The notes beneath the pieces are model-generated. The model worked only from the letters and a program-made list of their open reading frames with translations, searched no databases and was not told where the DNA came from. The position numbers and the translations under genes were made by a program. Shown piece by piece: positions 4,540 to 50,778 of a stretch of DNA of 64,000 nucleotides (position 1 is its first letter; the number at the start of each line of letters is the position of its first letter). Source of the DNA: Octopus vulgaris (lineage: Eukaryota); assembly GCA_951406725.2 (NCBI GenBank), contig OX597816.1, forward strand, positions 55,738,001 to 55,802,000, given 5' to 3'.

Positions 4540-5930
4540 AATTGTAGTAAACGCACTGAGCTCCAAGTGCCCATACCCCGAGGATGGACTGGTTATATCC
4601 AACAACACTAGAATAAGTTAGGAAATAGCACACCTTCATCGTTAATCAATAATGCCTTAATATCTTAGTCGCTACTAATCTGTCAGCAGTCGAATTTTTC
4701 TCTAGATCTAAACTCTTCCTCTTATAAGCCTTATCATAAGCCCAACAAGAAACTTTCGCACATTCACAATTTTGTCACCCCCACCAAAAACCACAGTGCG
4801 TAAAAGCTGACTGCCAACATTAGCTACATGATATTTAATGTTTTTTTCCTCTAAAGACATTTTTGAGAAGGTAACCCACTATCAATAGTGGCTCTAAAGA
4901 ATTATTTTACAACCCCTCAACGAGTTACAGAAGTAGACATAGAATAATTTGGTTCGTCCCTCCCCTTTTACCTTAAAGTTAAAAACAACATAGATAAAAG
5001 ATACCTGTCTCTTTTAGACATACATATATCCGTAAATCACAGCTACAGAAAAATATTCCACAGGTACTCAGTTAAATTATTTATCAGATATCTGCTGCCC
5101 TAATATCAAGGGCATCATTACACGCAAACACCACCAAGAGACTACTCCTAGTTGCAATTGTCGAAACTCAAGAAACTGCCCACTCAACCACGGGTGCATC
5201 CGACATATATGAGGCAGAATTTACAGCAACAATAGATTAGAAACATAAGAAAAAAGAAGAGCTACATCGGGTTATGTGAACGCGACTCAGAAATCACTTT
5301 ATTAAAGATATATCTCCCTTCCGGCACAGGGACCGACCGAAAGCCATTAAGTTGGTTAGCCATGTAAGGGGGTTGAGGCCTAAAGTCCTACAACATACAA
5401 TCAAGTGGGGATAGTTGAAAATCCTATACCATATGTCATCGGATCAAAAAAACATATGAGCTAATGGTAACTGAACGAGCACAGATCCTTTTCACAACTC
5501 CACTGTACTGTTGAATTGCAGATCTGAAATTTTCAACAGATGTAAACATATAGATACGTTCCTGTTGGCGAATTGGAAAATACGGCCCTCTCCGTATTGA
5601 GCAATTTTAGTGCAATCTCCGGGACCCTATCCATTCAGCCTTATGGCTTTACGGTCAAAGGGGATATAATTAATTTCTCGCCCTTCATTTCTTTGTTGGG
5701 TATTTTCGACCTTCAAACTTTTACATCTATATTTATCGACTTTTTCACCATTCCTCTTATGTTTTAGCTTGTTATGCCATGTGGTCAAATCTTGACGATT
5801 GTATGAGGCACGGGACGTGTTATAAAATGTCAGTAGCTTATAAAATATAGGCTGTTTATTAAATAATATTTATCCCTTACCATATCATACAGAGTGCTTT
5901 GTTATTGAGTTTACATTCACGGAACTGTGT
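4540..5930 (+). pseudogene. Decayed Penelope-like element, 3' part (RT thumb, Cys linker, GIY-YIG endonuclease)
   Basis: Frameshifted translation gives IIWFVPP(F)..KVKNNIDKRYLSLLDIH..HSYRKIFHR (~4945-5070), SCNCRNSRNCPLNHGC (~5150-5200), IYEA..SYIGLCE (~5205-5280) and LLNCRSEIFNRCKH..FLLANW (~5508-5577). These are typical PLE C-terminal motifs. Confidence 0.85.
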
Positions 5931-5932
5931 AC

Positions 5933-5963
<31 letters not shown>

Positions 5964-5965
<2 letters not shown>

Positions 5966-6930
5966 GGATGATGAAATTCCATATAGAATTAGGAAAGAAA
6001 GTGTTGCTTTCGGAAGGCGAGACGTATGCAGAATGACAAAGATAAATGTGTACAAGGCATGTGTGCTCCCTTCTCTTCTCTATGCCTGCGAGACGTGGTT
6101 CACATATCGATACCACCTTAAACAACTGGAACGCTTCCATCAGATGTGCCTCAGACGGATCTATGTCATTAAGTAGGAGAACCGCATCAGTGATCTTGAA
6201 ATATTGGAAGGCTTTCAGTGCGAAAGTATAGCAGCTCTTGTGTTAAAGCAAAGGCTCAGATGGAGTGGTCATCTGGTCAGGATGAAGGATTCAAGGATAC
6301 CAAAACAACTCTTTTATGGAGAGTTAGCTAAAGGAGGACGACCTCCATATAAACCAAAAAAGAGGTATAATGACTTGCTGAAGGCTTCCTTAAGAGATGC
6401 TTGCATCTCTCCTAACACATGGAAGGGCATAGCTATTGATCGTAGCAGGTGGGGAAGGATTGTGCACGAGGGAACAGCTACTTTTGAGAAATCTCGAGTT
6501 GCGCATGAGAAAGTAAGGAGGGATTTCAGTAAGAGCATCGCTGTTACACTTCCAGATGGGACGGGTCTTCCTTTGATGCTGACATGCAGTGTCTGTGCAT
6601 GATCCTGCCTCAGTAAAGCTGGACTCAAGAGTCATCTTCGTAGTCATAAATCGAGACAGATGAGTGACAACCTGGTCACTGGTGGTGGTGTTACACACCA
6701 TACTAATCATATCTGTCAGGCATGTGGAAGAAGTGTAATTCGACAGGAGGACTTAAACGACATGCCCAGTTACAACTACAGCCGGCTATTACCGGTAAAG
6801 GTTTTGTCTGCCAATTCTGTAGAAGACATTGTAGATCTTTAGCTGGGCTAAAAATCACATTCGATCACAGCACCAATTACAGTTAAGCATCGTGCAATGG
6901 CCATACTCGATAACGTGGGGGCAGCCATCT
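5964..6930 (+). mobile_element. RTE-clade LINE, 5'-truncated 3' end
   Basis: KINVYKACVLPSLLYACETW, LERFHQMCLRRI, QRLRWSGHLVRMKDSRIPKQLFYGEL and a C-terminal CxxC..H zinc knuckle; contains in-frame stops. Confidence 0.9.
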
Positions 6931-25190: not shown

Positions 25191-25753
25191 AGAAATCTCA
25201 CCTGGAAGCATCACCGCTGGAGATTGAGAAATAACGGAAGCACTCACATGGGAAAGAAAGATGAGATAAAGAAACCTGAGTCGTAAGAAATATAAAATCA
25301 GACCCCAAACCTTATTTAAATACGCCAAGAAGAGTGCCTCTGTGCACTGCGGGATAGGACCACACCTCCAAAACGATGGCTCCCTCACGGGGATCCCAAT
25401 GAGGATTAGAGAAAAACTGAATGAGCAGGTAAAAAGTATCTTCCCCCCACCCATACGGCACATGCAAGTTAGCAAACCTGCAGAATTCTTTACCACTACT
25501 GATGTAGAAATGGAATAACAATTGATTACATGAACATCAAAGAAGAGAATGTAATAATGGCAATAGATTATATAGATGCACATTCAGCTGCTGGCTCTGA
25601 TTGATTCCCAGCAATCCTTCTCAAGTATGCAAATGAGTCCTTGTAAAACCATTGCAGCTACTTTCTCAGAGCTTCCTCGCAGATGCACTAAAGGAAGGAA
25701 TAATATACCCTATCCTTAAAGGAGGAAGCAGAGAAGATGCTAAAAACTATAGG

Positions 25754-25841
<88 letters not shown>

Positions 25842-27130
25842 CTCACACATCAGCAAAGCCATGGTTCGAATGGTCCGAAGGATATTAATTGCATTCTTTG
25901 AAGATTATGACTTGCTGACTGACACCCAGCATGGTTTCCGACCAGGTAGAAGCTGCCTGAAACAGTTCTTGCAGCATTACATCTTGGTGTTAAAGCAATT
26001 GATCAACAATTCAAATGTGGACGTGATATACCGCGATATTACAAAAGCACTTGACAAGGTCGACAATGGAATGATTTGTACCAAGCTCCAAAATATTGGC
26101 ACACTCGAAAAACTTGGAGAATGGCTCCATAAGTCTAAAAGATAGAAGTCTGGTAGTGGTGGTCAATGGGACCAGCTCCGAGGAAATAGAAATAATGAGT
26201 GGTATTCCACACGGTACTCTTCTGGAGCCAGTGTTATTCAGAGTGGCCCTCTCTGACATGCCCTCAGCTGCTCAAGTAGCTACCCTTGCTAACTATGGAG
26301 ACGATACAAAAATCTCTCAAAGGATGCAGGATCCTGGAGATGTGCATCTACAACGGAAATTTGAGGCAATATATAGGAGGGCTGAGGAAAATAAGATGCA
26401 GTTTAATATTGGAAAATTCCAAGCCCTGCGATACCAACACAGATAGCTATGAAAAGTAGATAGGTTACAGTGGGCCAAAAGGGATTTGTATTCCGGTATC
26501 AAAATCAGTACATAATCTGAGCATCGACATGAGTAATGTTGCCGCTTTCCAGATACATATTACCAAGCTGGCAATAAAATACAGACGTCTGGCTGGATGG
26601 AACCTTCGAACATTCAAAACAAGAGAAAAGGAAACCATGATGGTCCTCAGAATGACTTTCATTTTCTGCCGTCTGATTACTACTCCCAATTGTGGTCACC
26701 AGACAGTGTAAAATAACGACGAGACTCAAGGACATCTAGTGAAGCTACACCAAGAAGGTAGACACAATGTAACACATTAGCAACTGGGAGAGACTCCCTG
26801 GAGCGAAGGCGGGATAGATATTTAGTAATATACATCTGGAAAATCCTGGAAACTCTTGTGTCTAATTTTGGCATTATCAGTTACATTAACAACAGGGCGG
26901 GGTGCCACTGCATAGTACCAAAAAGCTAAAGATTGCCAACAGGATACAGAACCAGATACTGCACAAGCGACTGGGTTTCAAAGTCCCACAGCTCTTCAAT
27001 ATCCGCCTCAAAGCCTGAGAGACCTGCAAAACAAAATGAGATCTCTTTCTGTCTAGAGTTCCGGATGAACCTACCTCAAGGAAAGAAACATAGAAGAGGG
27101 CAGTAACGTCAAACTCCCTCGGTTTAGTGA
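25190..27130 (+). mobile_element. CR1/L2-like LINE reverse transcriptase remnant
   Basis: PILKGG..NYRP(I)SLTSHISK, QHGFRPGRSC, D..KALDKVD, SGIPHGTLLEP, YGDDTK and MQFNIGKF; frameshifted. Confidence 0.9.
25755..25838. repeat. (CT)n microsatellite inside the LINE RT YRPISLT motif
   Basis: About 42 CT units between AACTATAGGC and GACCTCACAC. Confidence 0.95.
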
Positions 27131-33251: not shown

Positions 33252-33650
33252 CATCATCATCATCATCATTGTTAGACCCTGGTCGAGACAATGGAATTTA
33301 CCATGCTACGCCAGAATTCACGGTCCATCATGGCATTACGGAGGTCCTGTTGCTGGATGCCTGTATCCCTGGAGATTACATCAGGGTAGGAGAGTGTGCG
33401 CCCTCTGGTATTGCGAGTAGATGGCTTCCAGAGGAGAAGAGTAGAAATTACTTCTTTTTCAGCTCTACAACAATGTCCAGCAAACTGGACTCTCCTACCT
33501 TTCACAAGAGATGACACAGGTGGTAGTTTCCCATATATGTGCATTTTGGTTGGATGGCGCTTCCACGAGAGATTTTGAGCTCTCATAAGGAGGCGAGTGT
33601 AGGTTCCATCCAACCGCCTCTCAAGCTTCTTTGATAGCATCAGCAGACTC
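33252..33650 (-). mobile_element. RTE-clade LINE 3' end with (GAT)n tail
   Basis: LERRLDGTYTRLLMRAQNLSWKRH..RRVQFAGHCCR..AMMDREFWR, followed by a (GAT)n tail. Confidence 0.85.
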
Positions 33651-35439
33651 CAAAGATGTAATATCGCCTCCCTGATATCCTCAGAGTTTCGAGTTAAACA
33701 ATATTGTTTCAAACAGTTTCTTTTGTACATACCATAACTTGATTTTATCGGGACGGTAAACAAAATTCCGATTGGTTAAACAGAGTCGTACAGTTTAAGA
33801 CCCCCATCTGATATCACTATCAACCATTATCGTAGTTAGTACTCATCTTCTGCAAAGTTTATTAAGGTAAGGAGAAAAATACCGAAATCAGTTGAAATGA
33901 ATCTATTTGTGGAAAGAACAAAACCTTGATCAAAATTTCAAAGATTACAAAGAAAAAAATAATAATAACTAGTCACCAGTAGCATAGGGGAAAGGGAAAC
34001 ACGAATGAAAACTCTGTTGAAAGGTATGTCTTTCGTCCAAAATCTATAGAAAGTTATAAATAGGTTGAATGGTTCCAGCGATAGTGTTGTTCAGTCATTC
34101 AATAAAATAGATATAATCGGTTGAATGGAATCGGGAAGAGATTGATTAGAATATGCCCTCTGAACAGAAGGCTATTCCTGGTTTGAAGAAAAAATAGGAA
34201 ACCCGTTTCCATACTAAAGATTGAAAACGCCAAAATGTAGAGACTTATGCTATATGTTGATGAATAATTGTTATTGTAAAGAAGGCATGAAATAATGGTC
34301 TCTTAATGAAGTAGAAATATAAGATGGAATTCTCTCTACTCGAGAGATTAAAATTGGGATAGAAAAGAATAAATGAAGGTAGAAGTGACTGTCAAGTGGA
34401 AGAAAATCTGGAAATCTAAAACCGAAATTATTTAAGGCGCTTAGGGAAAGGACAGATTAAGTATTATAAAGATAACATTATTTAGAGTGAAGTATTAAAC
34501 AGCTTAGTGTAAAGGAAATCTGTGCATGGTCATCACAGCAAATATTGCTGAAGGCAATAAATATTGATTGAGAGAAATTCAATGTGATAGAAATGTGTTT
34601 GCGATAGAATAACCCATATACGAAAATCAGGAAAAGTAAATGTCTTCTATTCTTTTTCACTTCGTTTTGTTTTTGTTTTGTTGTTGTTGCTGTTGTTTTT
34701 CTCGCTCGAATACGATATGCGTAATACCAAAATTACCAAAAGAAAAGATTTAATTTTAGTACCTAATTATCATTTGCTAATGTAGTTTAATGAATTAGTC
34801 TGTCCCGGAAACAAAACACAATGCAGGAAAAGCAGCATGAAGACTTTAAGAAAAGGTAGCTACACTGGAATATGTCAAAGGAAGATTAACAGTGTTTATT
34901 GTGAAGAATTATCGATTAATTGCATTCGTACGAACCCACCAATTTTTGGAGATTAAGAACCATAAAATATATGAAATATAACTATGGTTTTATTTGTTCA
35001 AACTCCCAAAAATGTCTTGTATTGAACAGTAATGAAATCATGAAATTAAAACATTATGTGTATGTAAATATTATAATAACGTATTTTGGTGAATATCCAT
35101 GTGGTTTTTGTCCTGCTAGAAATAGCAGCTAAATTCCTATCAACATAGTTGACCGTCATAAAATAAAAACATATACATTGTATAACGTATCCTGTAATGT
35201 ATTAAACTTGATAGATAGATAAATAGACTTTATGGCCATTGTTTGAAAGTCTTTTGTTATATGTTTGCCGTATCCTGCTCATCTTTGAGCAACAGCAAAA
35301 AGAATAAAACAAGATTTTGCGCTATAAAACAATAGGAAATATTTTTTGAGCAGCGGTGCTTAAACGATATATCTTACCCTGATGAGAAACTCCGTAATCT
35401 TAATTACTAAGGAACTCCTAAAACGACAGGTTGGCCACA

Positions 35440-40999: not shown

Positions 41000-43720
41000 T
41001 GATACGTTGACATAGGCTTCTTTAGCCCTCGGCGACTGATGAAGATTGATTAAATCTGAAATCAGCTCTGATATGACTCCATCTTGCTTGCCGTAGGAAG
41101 GGAGTTTGTTTCCTTTGTCAGTCGTTAGAAAAGTGGTCTCATGTGGCTAAGAGTAAATTTGGCTCTTATTTCTAGCACTTGATAAATCGTGAAGCTAATG
41201 TTAAGGTCGTTTGGGTAATGCTGGCGGTATATTCTCCACATCGTGGAAACAAAATATCGCTCGCGGCGGCGCTGGAGAGAGTAGAGTTTCAATGCTTTGA
41301 GGTGGTCCCAGTAATCGAGATCAATCATGTTCTTAATTCGTTTAGTGAAAGCCCTCTGGGGGATACAATTTTCGAGATATTTTATTTCTTATGGGGAGAC
41401 CACAGGTGACAGCAGTATTCGAGGTGTAGCCGTACAAAGGAGAAGAAAAGAGGAACTATGCCACCTTGTTCTCTGGACCGGAAGGTCCTTAAGATCCAGG
41501 AGTTCATCCTATTAGCTATATCGACCTTATTGTTGATTTGGGCACTCCAACTGAGATTGTTCCCAGATCTCTGATATTATTAGATACTGTGAGAGTTTTC
41601 CCTAGAAGAAGAGAGTGTTGTTATTTAGAGAGTGTATTTTTTTTTCAAAATGCATCAGCTCAAATTTTCCTTCGTTCAGTTGCATTTTGTTTTTGTTTGC
41701 CCATTGACTCACAGCATATAGATCAGACTGGAGTTGAGTTCCGTCTTCTTCTTCATTGATGATTTGCTGGAGCTTTGTGTCATCAGCAAACATATTCCCT
41801 TTGCTGTGTTATACGACGCCGGAGCGGGCCCAAGACAGTCCCCTGAGGGACACCACTGGTGACTTTTGCTGGGCTTGAGTGAACTCCATCGATATCAACA
41901 GGTGTTTTGTTCGCTAGGAAATACTTAATCCAGTGTAGAAGTTTTCCACGGATTCCAACATTTGCCAATCTTGAGAGTATGACATTATTATGGTCCACTG
42001 TATCGAACGCTTTACTGAAGTCAACATGTATGACATCAGTTTCGAACCTGTTCCCAAGGCTTTTACTATATCATGGATGTGGTGTAAGAGCTGTGTTAGA
42101 CAGTCCCTTTCACAGCGAAAGCTATGCTGATTTGCATTTAGGAGTTTGTGGATCTCCAGGAAGCCAGCTATGCTTGATTTTACCGCTCTTTCAAACACTT
42201 TAATGATGTGGGAGGTGAGTGAAATTGGGCGATAGTTGACAAGGAGGAATATGTTTCCCCGTTTGAAAACTGGGATAACAGACTGGGATAGTTGTTTCGG
42301 TATATAACTTGAATCTAAACAATTTCTCCAGAGGTTGGTCAGGGGTACTGCAAGTTGGTTTCTACATTCCTTCAGGAGTCTAGCAAGGAATCTATCAGGG
42401 CCTTCAGCAGAATAGTATTTGACCTCATTTATTGCTGTTATAATATTTGAGGCAGTGAAGGTTATGTCCGAGATTAAATGTTGGGAATCGACTTCGTTCA
42501 CATCCCTTACGTCAATATCAGAGGATCACTAAATACAGAGCAGTATTGTTTCTGCAATGCTGCTGCCATTTCTTTAGCATCGTATTGGGAAATGCCGTTA
42601 TCATCGATCAATGGCCCAAAGGGTGAGGCAGCGGTTCTATGATTATTTGCATATGAATAGAGCACTTTTGTGTTCTGTTTAGTTATTGGTTATTATCCAT
42701 TGTTCTTCTGCAGCTCTTTGATTTTCAATGGAGGTTTCCATGTTGGTCTGCAGCTAAAGGTTTTCCAACTCCAGCTTTTTCATTGTTGTTGAATGTAGAT
42801 GTTGTATGTGGGAGTATTTTCAATTAGTTGTTTTTTTTTATTAAGTCTTTTTATGCGCCTGATGCGAGTTTTATTTTATTTATTTTTAGAGAGCCGGTTT
42901 CTGTTTGTGTTAGTAGATCTCATAGGAGCGTGTTTTGAGCAGGTACGGGTAACAACGTTCTCAAAGTGCTGCCATGCGGTCTCAATGTGAGTGGAACTGA
43001 GAGTGAAGAACCACTCGATAAAGGACAGATCCTTTCTGATTGCTCCCCAGTCCGCTTTATGGAAGTTTATGTTGTCGAATAAGTGCAATGGAGTGGGATT
43101 GGCTGGTTTGGTTTTGATATGCTGGCAATTAAATTTGCAAACTATCATACCGTGGTCTGAGAGGAAAGTTATTTTCAACTGAAATACTGTGAACGGAGCT
43201 AGAGTAGTTGGTTACTATTAGATCCAAGATCGTTTTATTCTCTTTGTTGGTTCGAGCACTAGCTGATTCAGGAAGAATTAATTCATTAGATTAGATAGTA
43301 ATTCTGCTGCTGCTTTATCTGGTGTAGACCATTTGCCAGTTTATATAAGGAAGGGTAAAATCACCCATCACTTGTATGTTTCCGGAGTTGTATTTTTGAA
43401 GGAAGGGCTTGATTTTGTTGAAGTATTCTTTAAAGCACTTTAGGCGTACTTGGGGTGCCCTGTAAAGACCAACAATGATTATGTTTGGCCTTGTTGAATA
43501 GTGATATCGATTCACAGTAGTCATTGGGAAATATGTCCTTGGCATCAGCCGAAATGGAGTCATGGAGAAATATGGCTGTTCTCCTTTTATTTCGGTCTGT
43601 GCAATCTGCTCAGATGATGGGGAAATCTTTTATTTTTACCTCGGCATCCATATGAGTGCTTTTTAGGTCAATTTCCATAGAGATAAAAAAAAAGGGATTG
43701 GTATTTGTATTGTTCTAAGC
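41000..43720 (-). mobile_element. CR1/L2-like LINE ORF2 pseudogene (APE endonuclease + RT)
   Basis: IIVGLYRAP, GDFTLPYINW and SDHGMI (APE); GPD, NYRPISLTSHIIKVFE, QHSFR, GVPQGTVLGP, FADDTK and LYSLQRRRER (RT and C-terminus); many frameshifts. Confidence 0.92.
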
Positions 43721-45007: not shown

Positions 45008-45285
45008 GGAATTTTGTATGGATAATACCATACAACATTATGGTGCCTTTAACTTAAGTACCATATTCATCTGAATCTATATATATATATATATATACTA
45101 AGCAATTAAGGGTTTAGCAACGAATTGCCTTACCACACACCGAATTTAGAAATAGCAGTCAAAGAGATTATAGCTATTTCTTCTACTAAAAGGGAGATCA
45201 CAGTAAAGGCACAGCATTTGAAAGGCAAACACAAACAGGTAAAAGAGAATGAATTAACGGCAATCTATTATACAGTTTTAAGTCA

Positions 45286-45377
45286 CCTACGGACGTACGT
45301 TTCGAGATCAAGTCTTAGGAAAGCATAAGAATTAGATAACTCTACTTTACCCAGACTTCTTCTTTCATCAGCGCAGG
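45286..45377 (-). ncRNA. Type I hammerhead ribozyme (inverted unit)
   Basis: Reverse complement of the motif at 45742-45833. Confidence 0.9.
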
Positions 45378-45741
45378 ATACTAACAATCATGAATGATTG
45401 AATATTGAATTTTGAGATACTAGAAGGCACCAACTCAACTCAGTATCAGAGCGAGCTAGAGGCCACAGCTAGTATCACCAAATTCAAAGTATGAATGAAA
45501 GCTTGTGTCACCAGTCCCTTCCCACCCGCGTGTAGCCAAGACAAAGTGCCGTGGTCATTTACTGGGATGAATATGGTTTATGAGTAACAATGAAGGGTGA
45601 AATTAATTAATTTGGAACAATTATCAATTACACCAAGTAGTCTTCGGCATGTAAAAGCCTCATTTCGCTCTGATACTGAGTTGAGTTGGTGCCTTCTAGT
45701 ATCTCAAAATTCAATATTCAATCATTCATGATTGTTAGTAT

Positions 45742-45833
45742 CCTGCGCTGATGAAAGAAGAAGTCTGGGTAAAGTAGAGTTATCTAATTCTTATGCTTTC
45801 CTAAGACTTGATCTCGAAACGTACGTCCGTAGG
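45742..45833 (+). ncRNA. Type I hammerhead ribozyme, extended helix II
   Basis: CCTGCG-CTGATGA-(61 nt hairpin)-GAA-AC GTAC GT-C-CGTAGG; predicted cleavage after C45827 (GUC). Confidence 0.9.
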
Positions 45834-46327
45834 TGACTTAAAACTGTATGATAGATTGCCGTTAATTCATTCTCTTTTACCTGTTTGTGTTTGCCTTTCA
45901 AATGCTGGGCCTTTACTGTGATCTCCTTTTAGTAGAAGAAATAGCTATAATCTCTTTGACTGCTATTTCTAAATTCGTTGTGTGGTAAGGCAATTCGTTG
46001 CTAAACCCTTAATTGCTTAGTATTACTTAAATTTTCCTCGAATGAGGCTTTTACATGCCGAAGACTACTTGGTGTAATTGATAATTGTTCCAAATTAATT
46101 AATTTCACCCTTCATTGTTACTCATAAACCATATTCATCCCAGTAAATGACCACGGCACTTTGTCTTGGCTACACGCGGGTGGGAAGGGACTGGTGACAC
46201 AAGCTTTCATTCATACTTTGAATTTGGTGATACTAGCTGTGGCTTCTAGCTCGCTCTGATACTGAGTTGAGTTGGTGCCTTCTAGTATCTCAAAATTCAA
46301 TATTCAATCAATCATGATTGTTTGTAT

Positions 46328-46419
46328 CCTGCGCTGATGAAAGAAGAAGTCTGGGTAAAGTAGAGTTATCTAATTCTTATGCTTTCCTAAGACTTGATCT
46401 CGAAACGTACGTCCGTAGG
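46328..46419 (+). ncRNA. Type I hammerhead ribozyme, extended helix II
   Basis: Same motif; predicted cleavage after C46413. Confidence 0.9.
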
Positions 46420-46914
46420 GAACTTAAAACTGTATGATAGATTGCCGTTAATTCATTCTCTTTTACCTGTTTGTGTTTGCCTTTCAAATGCTGTGCCTTT
46501 ACTGTGATCTCCCTTTTAGTAGAAGAAATAGCTATAATCTCTTTGACTGCTATTTCTAAATTCGGTGTGTGGTAAGGCAATTCGTTGCTAAACCCTTAAT
46601 TGCTTAGTATTACTTAAATTTTCCTCGAATGAGGCTTTTACATGCCGAAGACTACTTGGTGTAATTGATAATTGTTCCAAATTAATTAATTTCACCCTTC
46701 ATTGTTACTCATAAACCATATCCATCCCAGTAAATGACCACAGCACTTTGTCTTGGCTACACGCGGGTGGCAAGGGACTGGTGACACAAGCTTTCATTCA
46801 TACTTTGAATTTGGTGATACTAGCTGTGGCTTCTAGCTCGCTCTGATACTGGGTTGAGTTGGTGCCTTCTAGTATCTCAAAATTAAATATTCAATCATTC
46901 ATGATTGTTTGTAT

Positions 46915-47006
46915 CCTGCGCTGATGAAAGAAGAAGTCTGGGTAAAGTAGAGTTATCTAATTCTTATGCTTTCCTAAGACTTGATCTCGAAACGTACGTC
47001 CGTAGG
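46915..47006 (+). ncRNA. Type I hammerhead ribozyme, extended helix II
   Basis: Same motif; predicted cleavage after C47000. Confidence 0.9.
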
Positions 47007-47500
47007 GAACTTAAAACTGTATGATAGATTGCCGTTAATTCATTCTCTTTTACCTGTTTGTGTTTGCCTTTCAAATGCTGTGCCTTTACTGTGATCTCCC
47101 TTTTAGTAGAAGAAATAGCTATAATCTCTTTGACTGCTATTTCTAAATTCGGTGTGTGGTAAGGCAATTCGTTGCTAAACCCCTAATTGCTTAGTATTAC
47201 TTAATTTTTCCTCGAATGAGGCTTTTACATGCCGAAGACTACTTGGTGTAATTGATAATTGTTCCAAATTAATTAATTTCACCCTTCATTGTTACTCATA
47301 AACCATATTCATCCCAGTAAATGACCACAGCACTTTGTCTTGGCTACACGCGGGTGGAAGGGACTGGTGACACAAGCTTTCATTCATACTTTGAATTTGG
47401 TGATACTAGCTGTGGCCTCTAGCTCGCTCTGATACTGAGTTGAGTTGGTGCCTTCTAGTATCTCAAAATTCAATATTCAATCATTCACGATTGTTAGTAT

Positions 47501-47592
47501 CCTGCGCTGATGAAGGAAGAAGTCTGGGTAAAGTAGAGTTATCTAATTCTTATGCTTTCCTAAGACTTGATCTCGAAACGTACGTCCGTAGG
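47501..47592 (+). ncRNA. Type I hammerhead ribozyme, extended helix II
   Basis: Same motif with one A>G in helix II (A-U becomes G-U); predicted cleavage after C47586. Confidence 0.9.
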
Positions 47593-47878
47593 TGACTTAA
47601 AACTGTATGATAGATTGCCGTTAATTCATTCTCTTTTACCTGTTTGTGTTTGCCTTTCAAATGCTGGGCCTTTACTGTGATCTCCCTTTTAGTAGAAGAA
47701 ATAGCTATAATCTCTTTGACTGCTATTTCTAAATTCGGTGTGTGGTAAGGCAATTCGTTGCTAAACCCTTAATTGCTTAGTATTACTTAAATTTTCCTCG
47801 AATGAGGCTTTTACATGCCGAAGACTACTTGGTGTAATTGATAATTGTTCCAAATTAATTAATTTCACCCTTCATTGT

Positions 47879-47965
<87 letters not shown>

Positions 47966-49736: not shown

Positions 49737-49784
<48 letters not shown>

Positions 49785-49787
<3 letters not shown>

Positions 49788-50200
49788 TTAATAATTAGGG
49801 TTCAGCAAAGATTTGCTTTACCACATACCGAAGTTTAGAAATAGCAGCCAAAAAACCTTAGCTATTTCTTCTATTTTAAAAAGGGACTCCCAGAGGAACC
49901 AAAATACTTGAAAACAATTCACACAGGCAGAGAAAATCAATCAATATCTGGTCATCCATGGACGCGCGTATCGGAATTAGATCGGTATAATGAATATAGA
50001 ATTATACTTTACCAACCATTTTCCTCATCAGCATGGCATTCCTCAATAATTAAATATTGAAATATTAAATTCGAGGGTACTGGAATAATTGAACATATCT
50101 CTCCACCTAACGGTATCAGGCAGATCATATTCAGTGTTAGTACCGCCGAATTCAAAATATGAATGAGGTTCGTTTACCTTCCCCGCCCATCCGCGTGTGT
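49785..50200 (-). mobile_element. Diverged single copy related to HHR family 1
   Basis: Collinear with 45096-45533 (..TTAGAAATAGCAG.., ..TTCAAA.TATGAATGA.., ..CCGCGTGT); same end point next to (TA)n. Confidence 0.8.
49956..50036 (-). ncRNA. Type I hammerhead ribozyme, core mutated (GAUA for GAAA)
   Basis: Minus strand: CCATG-CTGATGA-GGAA..(long insert)..TTCC-GAT-AC GCGC GT-C-CATGG. Confidence 0.8.
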
Positions 50201-50778
50201 CTTCAAGTAAGCATACCGATAGAATAAATACTAGGCTTAAGATATGTCTTGCTGTCGATTTCTTCGACTAAAGCCCTTCAAGGTGATGCTCCAGTATGAC
50301 CGCTGCCAAATGACTGAAACAAGTAAAAGAACAAACGTGACTTAACTCACAAAATTTACTTCCTTATCTCTGGGAATTATCTCCCTTTACTGTAAGAACT
50401 CTCAAAACTATGGTTTTGCCTTTGTTTTAAAAACCCGAGTAAAATCTTAATCGCTCGAAATTTTATCTCACCCATGTATTTCCAGCACACGAATCATTAA
50501 CATATTTGTGTATTATATATCGATTATTTATACATTTTTCAATAAGCAGAATCGCTCTATGCCTTTCGGCATAAACCTATTATAGAACTTAGTTCAAGCT
50601 GTTTCCTTTCAGAATTCATATCATGTCTAGTTGTGTCTTTGACTTTCATCTCTCTGCAATAAGATAAAATAAGCGTCATAAACATATAGACGTCGAATCA
50701 ATACAATGAATACTTAGTCCGAACATTTTGAAATAACGGGCCAAAGATAGAGATCAACAGAGACACACACACACACAC

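What the first reader, a model, noticed from the sequence alone, without database searches (positions are those of the whole stretch)
45742..45833. Unusual hammerhead architecture: very long helix II with a tiny palindromic helix III
Seen: helix II is a 61-nt interrupted hairpin (AGA/UCU, AAGUCU/AGACUU, GGG-AAAGU/GCUUU-CCU, GAGUU/AAUUC) opened by an A.C mismatch, while helix III is the self-complementary ACGUACGU. Known: Penelope-associated type I HHRs have short palindromic helix III and are thought to cleave as dimers, usually with a short helix II. Inference: neighbouring units could pair through ACGUACGU to form double hammerheads, so cleavage would need a multimeric transcript. The long helix II may also cause standard motif searches to miss these.
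Basis: partly seen in the sequence, partly recalled or inferred. Interest (0 to 1): 0.75.

Follow-up and report, generated by a model that had tools for sequence, protein, structure and literature searches.

The report
Long-armed hammerhead in a retrozyme
This is a predicted self-cutting RNA motif in a small protein-free jumping repeat; its long side arm is most likely an ordinary short arm with an extension, it likely cuts best when two neighbouring copies pair, and thousands of such long-armed motifs in this genome escape the standard RNA-family search.

Summary
The motif is real: a type I hammerhead (61-nt helix II, A.C first pair, ACGUACGU helix III), one of five copies in a two-armed insertion of a 587-bp non-coding unit in (TA)n, i.e. 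a retrozyme with Penelope-type insertion marks. Comparison of 52 relatives changes the reading. Helix II is a canonical 4-bp stem plus an internal loop that keeps the known docking residues (3' A 52/52, U1.7 51/52), then a variable extension; a viroid (CChMVd minus) has such a design. The palindrome centre covaries (UA/CG; 51/52 self-complementary) and a two-unit RNA folds into a double hammerhead, supporting dimers; that dimers are required is not shown, as published invertebrate monomers cut. The A.C pair is a recent change from G-C in a lineage that kept spreading. Long helix II is not rare here: at least 7,778 pattern matches against 844 short ones, and Rfam misses them. Cutting, circles, expression and the partner enzyme are unshown; copy 5' ends do not mark the cut. 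This scan had already noted long-stem-II, two-armed retrozymes in this genome. New variant of a known kind.

The parts
45742..45834 (+). Type I hammerhead, copy 1 of the + arm (the finding), with unpaired U1.7 at 45834; predicted cut between 45827 and 45828
45755..45815 (+). Helix II: 4-bp base (45755-45758 with 45812-45815, first pair A.C), internal loop with 5' purine (45759) and 3' U-R-A (45809-45811), then a covarying second stem and a variable distal hairpin
45819..45826 (+). Palindromic helix III ACGUACGU: 2 bp plus GUAC loop as a monomer, 8 bp between neighbouring units
45095..45664 (-). Inverted arm, 570 bp (unit positions 18-587), 3' end at the first fixed site, running into (TA)n
45286..45377 (-). 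Hammerhead copy in the inverted arm
45665..47882 (+). Direct arm, 3.8 head-to-tail 586-587-bp non-coding units, 3' end at the second fixed site (unit position 99), running into (TA)n
46328..46419 (+). Hammerhead copy 2 (G instead of U at 1.7)
46915..47006 (+). Hammerhead copy 3 (G instead of U at 1.7)
47501..47592 (+). Hammerhead copy 4 (AGGA at the helix II base)
46414..47000 (+). Predicted monomer, cut site to cut site, 587 nt; as a circle 64% paired, z -6.8 against 40 shuffles
46546..46572 (+). Conserved terminal motif (RCTGCTATTTCTA...GTRTGTGG) about 130 nt downstream of the cut, shared by many families; approximate coordinates in unit 2; candidate site for the retrotransposon protein (inferred)
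   Evidence: (9,399 matches, control 0)
49784..50210 (-). Single truncated copy of a sister family, with a hammerhead at 49956-50036: G-C first pair, 52-nt helix II, palindrome ACGCGCGU, GAUA instead of GAAA in this copy; upstream end approximate

Best explanation
This is a type I hammerhead motif in a 587-bp protein-free repeat with Penelope-type insertion marks; its long helix II is likely a canonical 4-bp stem whose docking loop has become an internal loop under an extension, and it is predicted to cut mainly as a double hammerhead between neighbouring units. Steps: (1, inferred) arrays with two or more same-strand units are transcribed; (2, predicted) each unit folds as a domain closed by helix I strands of successive hammerheads, and two palindromes pair into an 8-bp helix III; (3, inferred) the 3' A of the internal loop docks on U1.7, as in Schistosoma and CChMVd hammerheads; (4, untested) cuts after GUC release 587-nt monomers that are ligated to circles, in which the core is predicted to misfold and so stay closed; (5, inferred from shown insertion anatomy) a Penelope-like reverse transcriptase/endonuclease primes at two fixed sites about 100 nt apart, copies round the template through the cut site and inserts into (TA)n. 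The A.C first pair is a derived change (shown) that likely slows cutting without stopping spread.
For: Compensatory changes in helix I (4 of 6 pairs), the helix II base (G-C/A-U at 2 of 4 pairs), the second stem and the palindrome centre; 96.2% of cells paired, slid controls 25-47%. Internal loop: 5' A 50/52, 3' U 52/52, R 52/52, A 52/52; U1.7 51/52; pyrimidine before helix I in at least 90%; the unrelated GCUA family also has 4 bp, 3' A and U1.7 (6 of 6 distinct sequences). These are the residues named by Dufour et al. (PMC2632901 passages). Two-unit fold: double -196.9, two single hammerheads -183.8 kcal/mol; in the whole + arm units 2 and 3 pair through all 8 bases. 110 of 118 arms end at one of two sites, 109 of 118 in TA-rich DNA, 29 of 36 two-armed inserts use one site each, as for Penelope-like elements (PMC11167929, PMC8557442). 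Arrays are uniform: 6 of 99 within-locus differences are family-wide variants; 0.6% within against 1.9% between loci. A10.1 copies nest inside G10.1 lineages, 1-2 changes on a 61-row tree. Two young Penelope-like families with intact RT/GIY-YIG frames and TA targets exist in the genome.
Against: No cleavage, ligation, circle or transcript was observed. 5' ends of copies are not enriched at the cut (3 of 118 within 3 nt, 1.4 expected, P 0.17) while arms pass through it 122 times; uncut multimers would give this too. Uniform arrays also follow from read-through of already uniform arrays, and the window's own array is the most mixed of 34 (15 variable sites). The largest long-helix group (GAAG base) lacks the U1.7/3' A geometry (U1.7 in 2 of 16), and window copies 2 and 3 have lost U1.7. 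No sequence link between the unit's ends and either autonomous element (270 and 181 of 300 shuffles scored as well). The two-unit fold was cut at the hammerhead ends, which favours the outer helix; in the whole arm only one of the possible pairs formed. Covariation counts are sequences, not independent events. In PMC11167929 cleavage was not needed for insertion in vitro; in bioRxiv 10.64898/2026.07.22.740005 eight of nine retrozyme dimers did not cut.
Confidence: 0.65

Rival explanations
1. Same element, but the hammerhead cuts well enough as a monomer: the tertiary contact stabilises the 2-bp helix III, and pairing between units only speeds it up.
For: Coral and mussel retrozyme monomers cut at about 0.8 and 0.1 per min; an axolotl motif with 2 bp plus tetraloop and a U.U mismatch at the helix II base gave 22% in an hour as a monomer (PMC7229834). 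64 of 81 loci hold only one same-strand hammerhead. Folding programs ignore tertiary contacts.
Against: The two central bases cannot pair in a monomer hairpin yet stay self-complementary in 51 of 52 and in 8 of 10 families grouped by eye. Monomer helix III probability 0.002. Axolotl dimers cut much better than monomers.
Confidence: 0.3
2. In this youngest subfamily the ribozyme is crippled by A10.1.C11.1; the family spreads from uncut multimeric read-through RNA, with array growth by template jumps, and the hammerhead is a passenger.
For: G10.1-C11.1 is the most conserved stem pair and mismatches lower activity (PMC3088659 passage). No 5'-end signal at the cut; 122 read-throughs. Catalytic mutants still inserted in vitro (PMC11167929). 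A second G-to-A lineage appears in the sister family (about 7 look-alike copies, by eye), and other relatives have altered cores.
Against: The rest of the core, helix I and the docking residues are intact in the A lineage, though it is too young (98-100% identity) for decay to show. Arrays up to 5.2 units that are internally uniform, from a family whose median arm is 0.8 unit, are more simply made on a circle.
Confidence: 0.2
3. The long helix II is there for splicing: it displays a splice donor (GGUAAG/GGUAAAG) whose use would remove the cut site, making a splice-or-cut switch.
For: A GT donor-like word is kept in helix II of most aligned relatives and GTAAGT/GTGAGT in the GCUA family; a pyrimidine tract and AG lie about 100 nt downstream; Penelope-like elements have introns in their repeats (PMC4209133).
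Against: No joint from this donor in contigs of seven runs guessed to be RNA; the same bases are explained by pairing (GUAA with UUAU, 49-51 of 52); the largest long-helix family has no such word; no genomic copy among 118 arms lacks the would-be intron.
Confidence: 0.07

Closest known systems
Metazoan non-LTR retrozymes (Cervera and de la Pena 2020, PMC7229834, parts 2-3 of 6 read; Li, Clavereau and Pollet 2026, bioRxiv 10.64898/2026.07.22.740005, parts 1-3 of 5 read)
   Same: Non-coding tandem units, one type I hammerhead per unit, 2-bp palindromic helix III, low GC, strongly self-paired monomer; a family with a mismatch at the helix II base is known (axolotl Amex2, U.U).
   Different: Helix II of 50-70 nt with an internal docking loop instead of a 4-bp stem and hairpin loop; unit of 587 nt, above the 170-400 nt circles described in 2020 but within the 51-972 bp of the 2026 preprint; circles and cutting not shown here.
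Hammerheads of Penelope-like elements (Cervera and de la Pena 2014, PMC4209133, parts 1-2 of 4 read)
   Same: Type I, palindromic helix III, dimer model, tandem and inverted arrangement.
   Different: Those have helix II of 6-8 bp, an unpaired base after A9, a short helix I and no recognisable loop contact; here helix I has 6 bp, no unpaired base in most relatives, and the docking residues are kept. No ORF here.
CChMVd minus-strand hammerhead (Dufour et al., PMC2632901, passages; review PMC3705267, one passage)
   Same: Unusually long helix II in which loop 2 is an internal loop whose 3' A pairs with the 5' U of loop 1.
   Different: Type III viroid ribozyme with a hairpin loop 1; here both loops would be internal, in a type I motif of a genomic repeat.
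Schistosoma mansoni full-length hammerhead (as described in PMC2632901 and PMC11875169, passages)
   Same: 6-bp helix I, unpaired U1.7, pyrimidine at the end of internal loop 1, 4-bp helix II, 3' A of loop 2.
   Different: Its loop 2 is a terminal CAAAUA hairpin loop.
Penelope-like insertion mechanism: Poseidon of Anolis (PMC11167929, parts 1-2 of 4 read); Neptune/Naiad structure (PMC8557442, passages)
   Same: Two fixed internal start sites, optional tail, inverted 5'-truncated copy, AT-rich or (TA)n target.
   Different: Tail about 100 nt rather than 30-40 nt; the element is non-coding and its partner is not identified.

Membership tests
Type I hammerhead ribozyme | Core CUGANGA, GAAA, UH in type I order | tested here: met
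   (core columns invariant in 52 relatives apart from N7)
Type I hammerhead ribozyme | Helices I and II supported by compensatory changes | tested here: met
Type I hammerhead ribozyme | G10.1-C11.1 (paired first position of helix II) | tested here: not met
   A.C in all five window copies; G-C in 43 of 52 aligned relatives; derived state
Type I hammerhead ribozyme | Loop 1-loop 2 contact residues (U1.7, 5' R and 3' A of loop 2) | tested here: met
   sequence only: against PMC2632901; the contact itself is not shown; copies 2 and 3 have G1.7
Type I hammerhead ribozyme | Match to Rfam Hammerhead_1 (RF00163) | tested here: not met
   none in the array locus; sister family 19.3 bits, E 1.9; short-helix control 32.2 bits, itself just under the 34-bit gathering score
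Type I hammerhead ribozyme | Site-specific self-cleavage | not testable with these tools
   no assay; copy 5' ends give no signal
Dimer (double) hammerheads | Self-complementary helix III kept across variants, including loop bases | tested here: met
Dimer (double) hammerheads | Dimer cuts much faster than monomer | not testable with these tools
   needs kinetics
Metazoan non-LTR retrozyme | Dispersed non-coding tandem units with one type I hammerhead each | tested here: met
Metazoan non-LTR retrozyme | Monomer strongly self-paired | tested here: met
   z -6.8 against 40 shuffles
Metazoan non-LTR retrozyme | Expressed as monomeric circular RNA | tested here: inconclusive
   only contigs of runs guessed to be RNA were available; a tandem unit cannot show a circle joint
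Non-autonomous Penelope-like element | Two fixed 3' ends, 5' truncation, inverted partner arm, microsatellite target | tested here: met
Non-autonomous Penelope-like element | Sequence shared with the terminal repeat of an autonomous element | tested here: not met
   two autonomous families compared, no significant likeness; other families of the genome not sampled, 150 of 6,136 GIY-YIG candidates scored
Autonomous Penelope-like element | RT and GIY-YIG reading frame | tested here: not met
   no frame of 100 aa in the array; (TA)n follows the 3' ends

The most novel reading that the evidence does not exclude
A type I hammerhead class in which two internal loops dock, with a free-length arm on helix II, is the dominant ribozyme of this genome (thousands of copies invisible to Rfam and to short-stem descriptors, so probably overlooked in other animals too), and the youngest lineage gained from weakening its own ribozyme: A10.1.C11.1 makes cutting strictly dimer-dependent, so circles stay closed and are copied more often.
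Probability: 0.2. Interest if true: 0.65.

Novelty: new variant of a known kind. Interest (0 to 1): 0.42.

Why it matters
It shows that hammerhead counts from short-stem models can miss most motifs in a genome (here at least 7,778 long against 844 short pattern matches), and it gives a natural series for an open question, whether the ribozyme of Penelope-type parasites is needed for their spread: sister lineages differ at the conserved 10.1-11.1 pair, in arm length (30-70 nt) and in the palindrome, all within near-identical, recently mobile units. The dimer idea itself and retrozymes are established, so the gain is a structural variant and a test system, not a new mechanism.

Tried and rejected
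Expression: no RNA holder listed; contigs of seven runs guessed to be RNA and one larger run of unknown kind hold pieces of the family, which shows neither transcription nor processing. A '72-nt skip, GT..AG' joint over the hammerhead was rejected as a splice: the record is long enough to hold the skipped part and loose ends at that place read as the diverged 70-nt-helix subfamily. Hammerheads spaced 5 kb apart on C1 and 8.7 kb apart on C2 were fetched as candidate autonomous elements and have no reading frame. The partner element was sought by GIY-YIG search, by protein search and by the shared terminal motif; a by-eye likeness of the ends to the 781-aa element did not beat shuffles. A cluster of 13 5' ends at unit 480-500 is not significant (293 of 5,000 simulations). 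RNAalifold on the raw alignment did not recover the helix II base; the structures counted were drawn by hand. My first pattern was too short and found nothing. Lunse et al. on dimeric Penelope hammerheads is not held and was seen only as cited in a review. Literature searches gave no report of cephalopod retrozymes or of a 50-70-nt helix II in a type I retrozyme; supplements of PMC4209133, PMC7229834 and PMC8557442 (which marks cores with 35-50-nt spacers as 'half cores') were not opened and may hold such cases.

Full report
Observation. The + strand folds into the interrupted hairpin (z -2.65, 1 of 200 shuffles as stable), the - strand does not. Rfam has no match in the window at gathering score.

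Context. The motif is one of five copies in one insertion: an inverted arm at 45095-45664 joined head to head to 3.8 tandem units of 586-587 bp at 45665-47882, 98-99% alike, both outer ends in (TA)n. There is no reading frame of 100 aa in it. A sister family with G-C at the first pair, a 52-nt helix II and palindrome ACGCGCGU lies 2 kb away. The genome has 2.8 Gb in 227 contigs; a search with the motif gave 1,174 candidates, 40 scored, 42 matches, 41 of them full-length at 98-100%.

How common the long arm is. Exact patterns over the genome gave 773 matches for a 35-65-nt spacer with helix III ACGNNCGU (control 3), 7,005 for G plus 34-64 nt with ACANNUGU (control 2) and 844 for a 5-34-nt spacer with any ACNNNNGU (control 53). 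These are pattern counts; helices were checked only in fetched loci. The short group is mostly a canonical 353-bp retrozyme with palindrome ACUCGAGU. Relatives sharing the unit's terminal motif (9,399 matches, control 0) have spacers of 30, 52, 60, 61 and 70 nt, so arm length is free. Rfam at E<=5 found the short control (32.2 bits, under its 34-bit cut-off), one long motif weakly (19.3 bits, E 1.9) and none in three other long-motif loci, including this array.

Structure from relatives. I aligned 52 distinct hammerheads of the ACG group, chosen by hand from the 71 distinct cores of clusters 0 and 2, leaving out unrelated ones and some near-duplicates. With a structure drawn from the alignment, 96.2% pair, 10 of 24 pairs change on both sides, and slid controls give 25-47%. 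Helix I, the 4-bp base of helix II and a second stem covary; the distal hairpin fits another register better. Counts are sequences, not events. Between the 4-bp base and the second stem is an internal loop with A on the 5' side in 50 of 52 and U-R-A on the 3' side in 52 of 52; the seventh base after the cut is U in 51 of 52, and the base before helix I is U in at least 90%. Dufour et al. (PMC2632901, passages) describe exactly these: a 5' purine and 3' A in loop 2, the A pairing with the first U of loop 1, a pyrimidine ending internal loop 1 in Schistosoma, and an internal loop 2 under a long helix II in the CChMVd minus strand; PMC11875169 (passages) names the U as 1.7. The unrelated GCUA family has the same geometry (6 of 6), the large GAAG family does not (U1.7 in 2 of 16). 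So the long arm is best read as a normal docking module with an extension. The contact is inferred from sequence.

The palindrome. The two central bases cannot pair within one hairpin, yet they are UA in 29, CG in 18, UG in 4 and non-complementary in 1 of 52; the search patterns left them free. Grouping by eye, 8 of 10 families have a Watson-Crick self-complementary centre, against a quarter by chance. In the monomer, helix III has probability 0.002 and the core mispairs with the cleavage triplet; for two units the unconstrained fold is the double hammerhead, 13 kcal/mol below two single ones. That construct ends at the hammerheads, which helps the outer helix; in the whole 2.2-kb arm units 2 and 3 pair through the palindrome and units 1 and 4 do not. 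This is the known dimer model (PMC4209133; PMC3088659 supplement legend). It does not show that dimers are required: the same helix III type cuts as a monomer in coral and mussel, and weakly in axolotl, where dimers are much better (PMC7229834).

The A.C pair. 105 of the 773 matches have A after A9; about 73 of the 100 listed are this subfamily and about 12 the sister family, by eye. On a tree of 61 loci the A copies nest inside G lineages with 1-2 changes and branch further among themselves (bootstrap not fully settled), so the change is recent and the lineage kept moving after it. Mismatches here lower activity (PMC3088659); an axolotl family with U.U at this place still cuts.

How copies are made. 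Of 155 arms mapped, 118 in 81 loci were kept (at least 85% identity, not at a locus edge). 70 end at unit position about 587, 40 at about 103, 8 elsewhere; 109 run into TA-rich DNA; 29 of 36 two-armed inserts use one site each and none uses the same site twice. This matches the two internal start sites, tail and inverted arm of Penelope-like elements (PMC11167929; PMC8557442). 5' ends are spread; 3 lie within 3 nt of the cut against 1.4 expected (P 0.17), while arms cross the site 122 times, so templates were religated or uncut. Units within a locus differ by 0.6% against 1.9% between loci, and only 6 of 99 within-locus differences are family-wide variants (34 loci), which suits copying round one circular monomer but does not exclude read-through of uniform arrays; this window's array is the most mixed. 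Only 13 of 81 loci have two or more same-strand hammerheads and could release a monomer. Two young autonomous families with RT, a CxxC linker and GIY-YIG (781 and 775 aa), TA targets and two fixed ends are present; the label Neptune for them rests on the linker as described, not on a tree. Neither shares detectable end sequence with the unit.

Earlier notes of this scan. After my own mapping of ends I saw notes on other long-stem-II, two-armed retrozymes in this genome. They agree but are not independent support; the count of end pairs and the 5'-end test were made after reading them.

Verdict. A real and well-supported hammerhead in a retrozyme-type parasite of Penelope-like elements. The dimer idea is old and is supported here by covariation and folding; the long arm has a viroid precedent but I found no report of it in type I retrozymes (searches; supplements not opened; Lunse et al. 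not held). New variant of a known kind, interest 0.42.

Noticed in passing
L145:788-6009 (G000:C6, about 112,993,800-112,999,000); also L139-L146: Young autonomous Penelope-like element with two overlapping frames (479 and 781 aa), TA target, and a hammerhead with the U3-A8 core (UUGAUAA), 20-nt helix II and palindrome ACAUGU in its terminal repeat.
   Followed up: partly
L150:3581-5982 and L231-L260: Second autonomous family (775 aa), 130 near-identical copies among 131 scored, two fixed ends 32 nt apart, with a hammerhead-like motif whose core reads CCGAAGA.
   Followed up: partly
L130:1489-1545 and the list: Canonical 353-bp retrozyme family (4-bp helix II, palindrome ACUCGAGU, U1.7), often two-armed; scores just under Rfam's cut-off.
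   Followed up: partly
L171-L190: Two much larger long-helix families: GAAG base with ACAURUGU, and GCUA base with ACAAUUGU in 532-535-bp tandem units; 7,005 matches together.
   Followed up: partly
window 46243-46493 (units 2 and 3 against 1, 4 and the inverted arm): Units 2 and 3 share four variants, among them loss of U1.7, that units 1 and 4 lack; a local one-unit duplication or a mixed template could explain it.
   Followed up: partly
L261, L273, L289, L290: Relatives with the same terminal motif but altered cores: A-U at 10.1-11.1, UUGAUAA or UUGACGA, or an extra A before GAAA.
   Followed up: no
L155:1484-1588, L159:1397-1500: Subfamily with a two-base insertion right after position 10.1 (GUCGAA, GACGAA), shifting the helix II base.
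   Followed up: no
unit positions 480-500 (window about 46503-46523): 13 of 118 5' ends fall just upstream of the conserved terminal hairpin; borderline (P about 0.06).
   Followed up: yes
window 5844-6602, 25753-26446, 33272-33775, 41914-43629: Fragments of LINE-type reverse transcriptase and endonuclease frames, recognised by eye in the ORF list.
   Followed up: no
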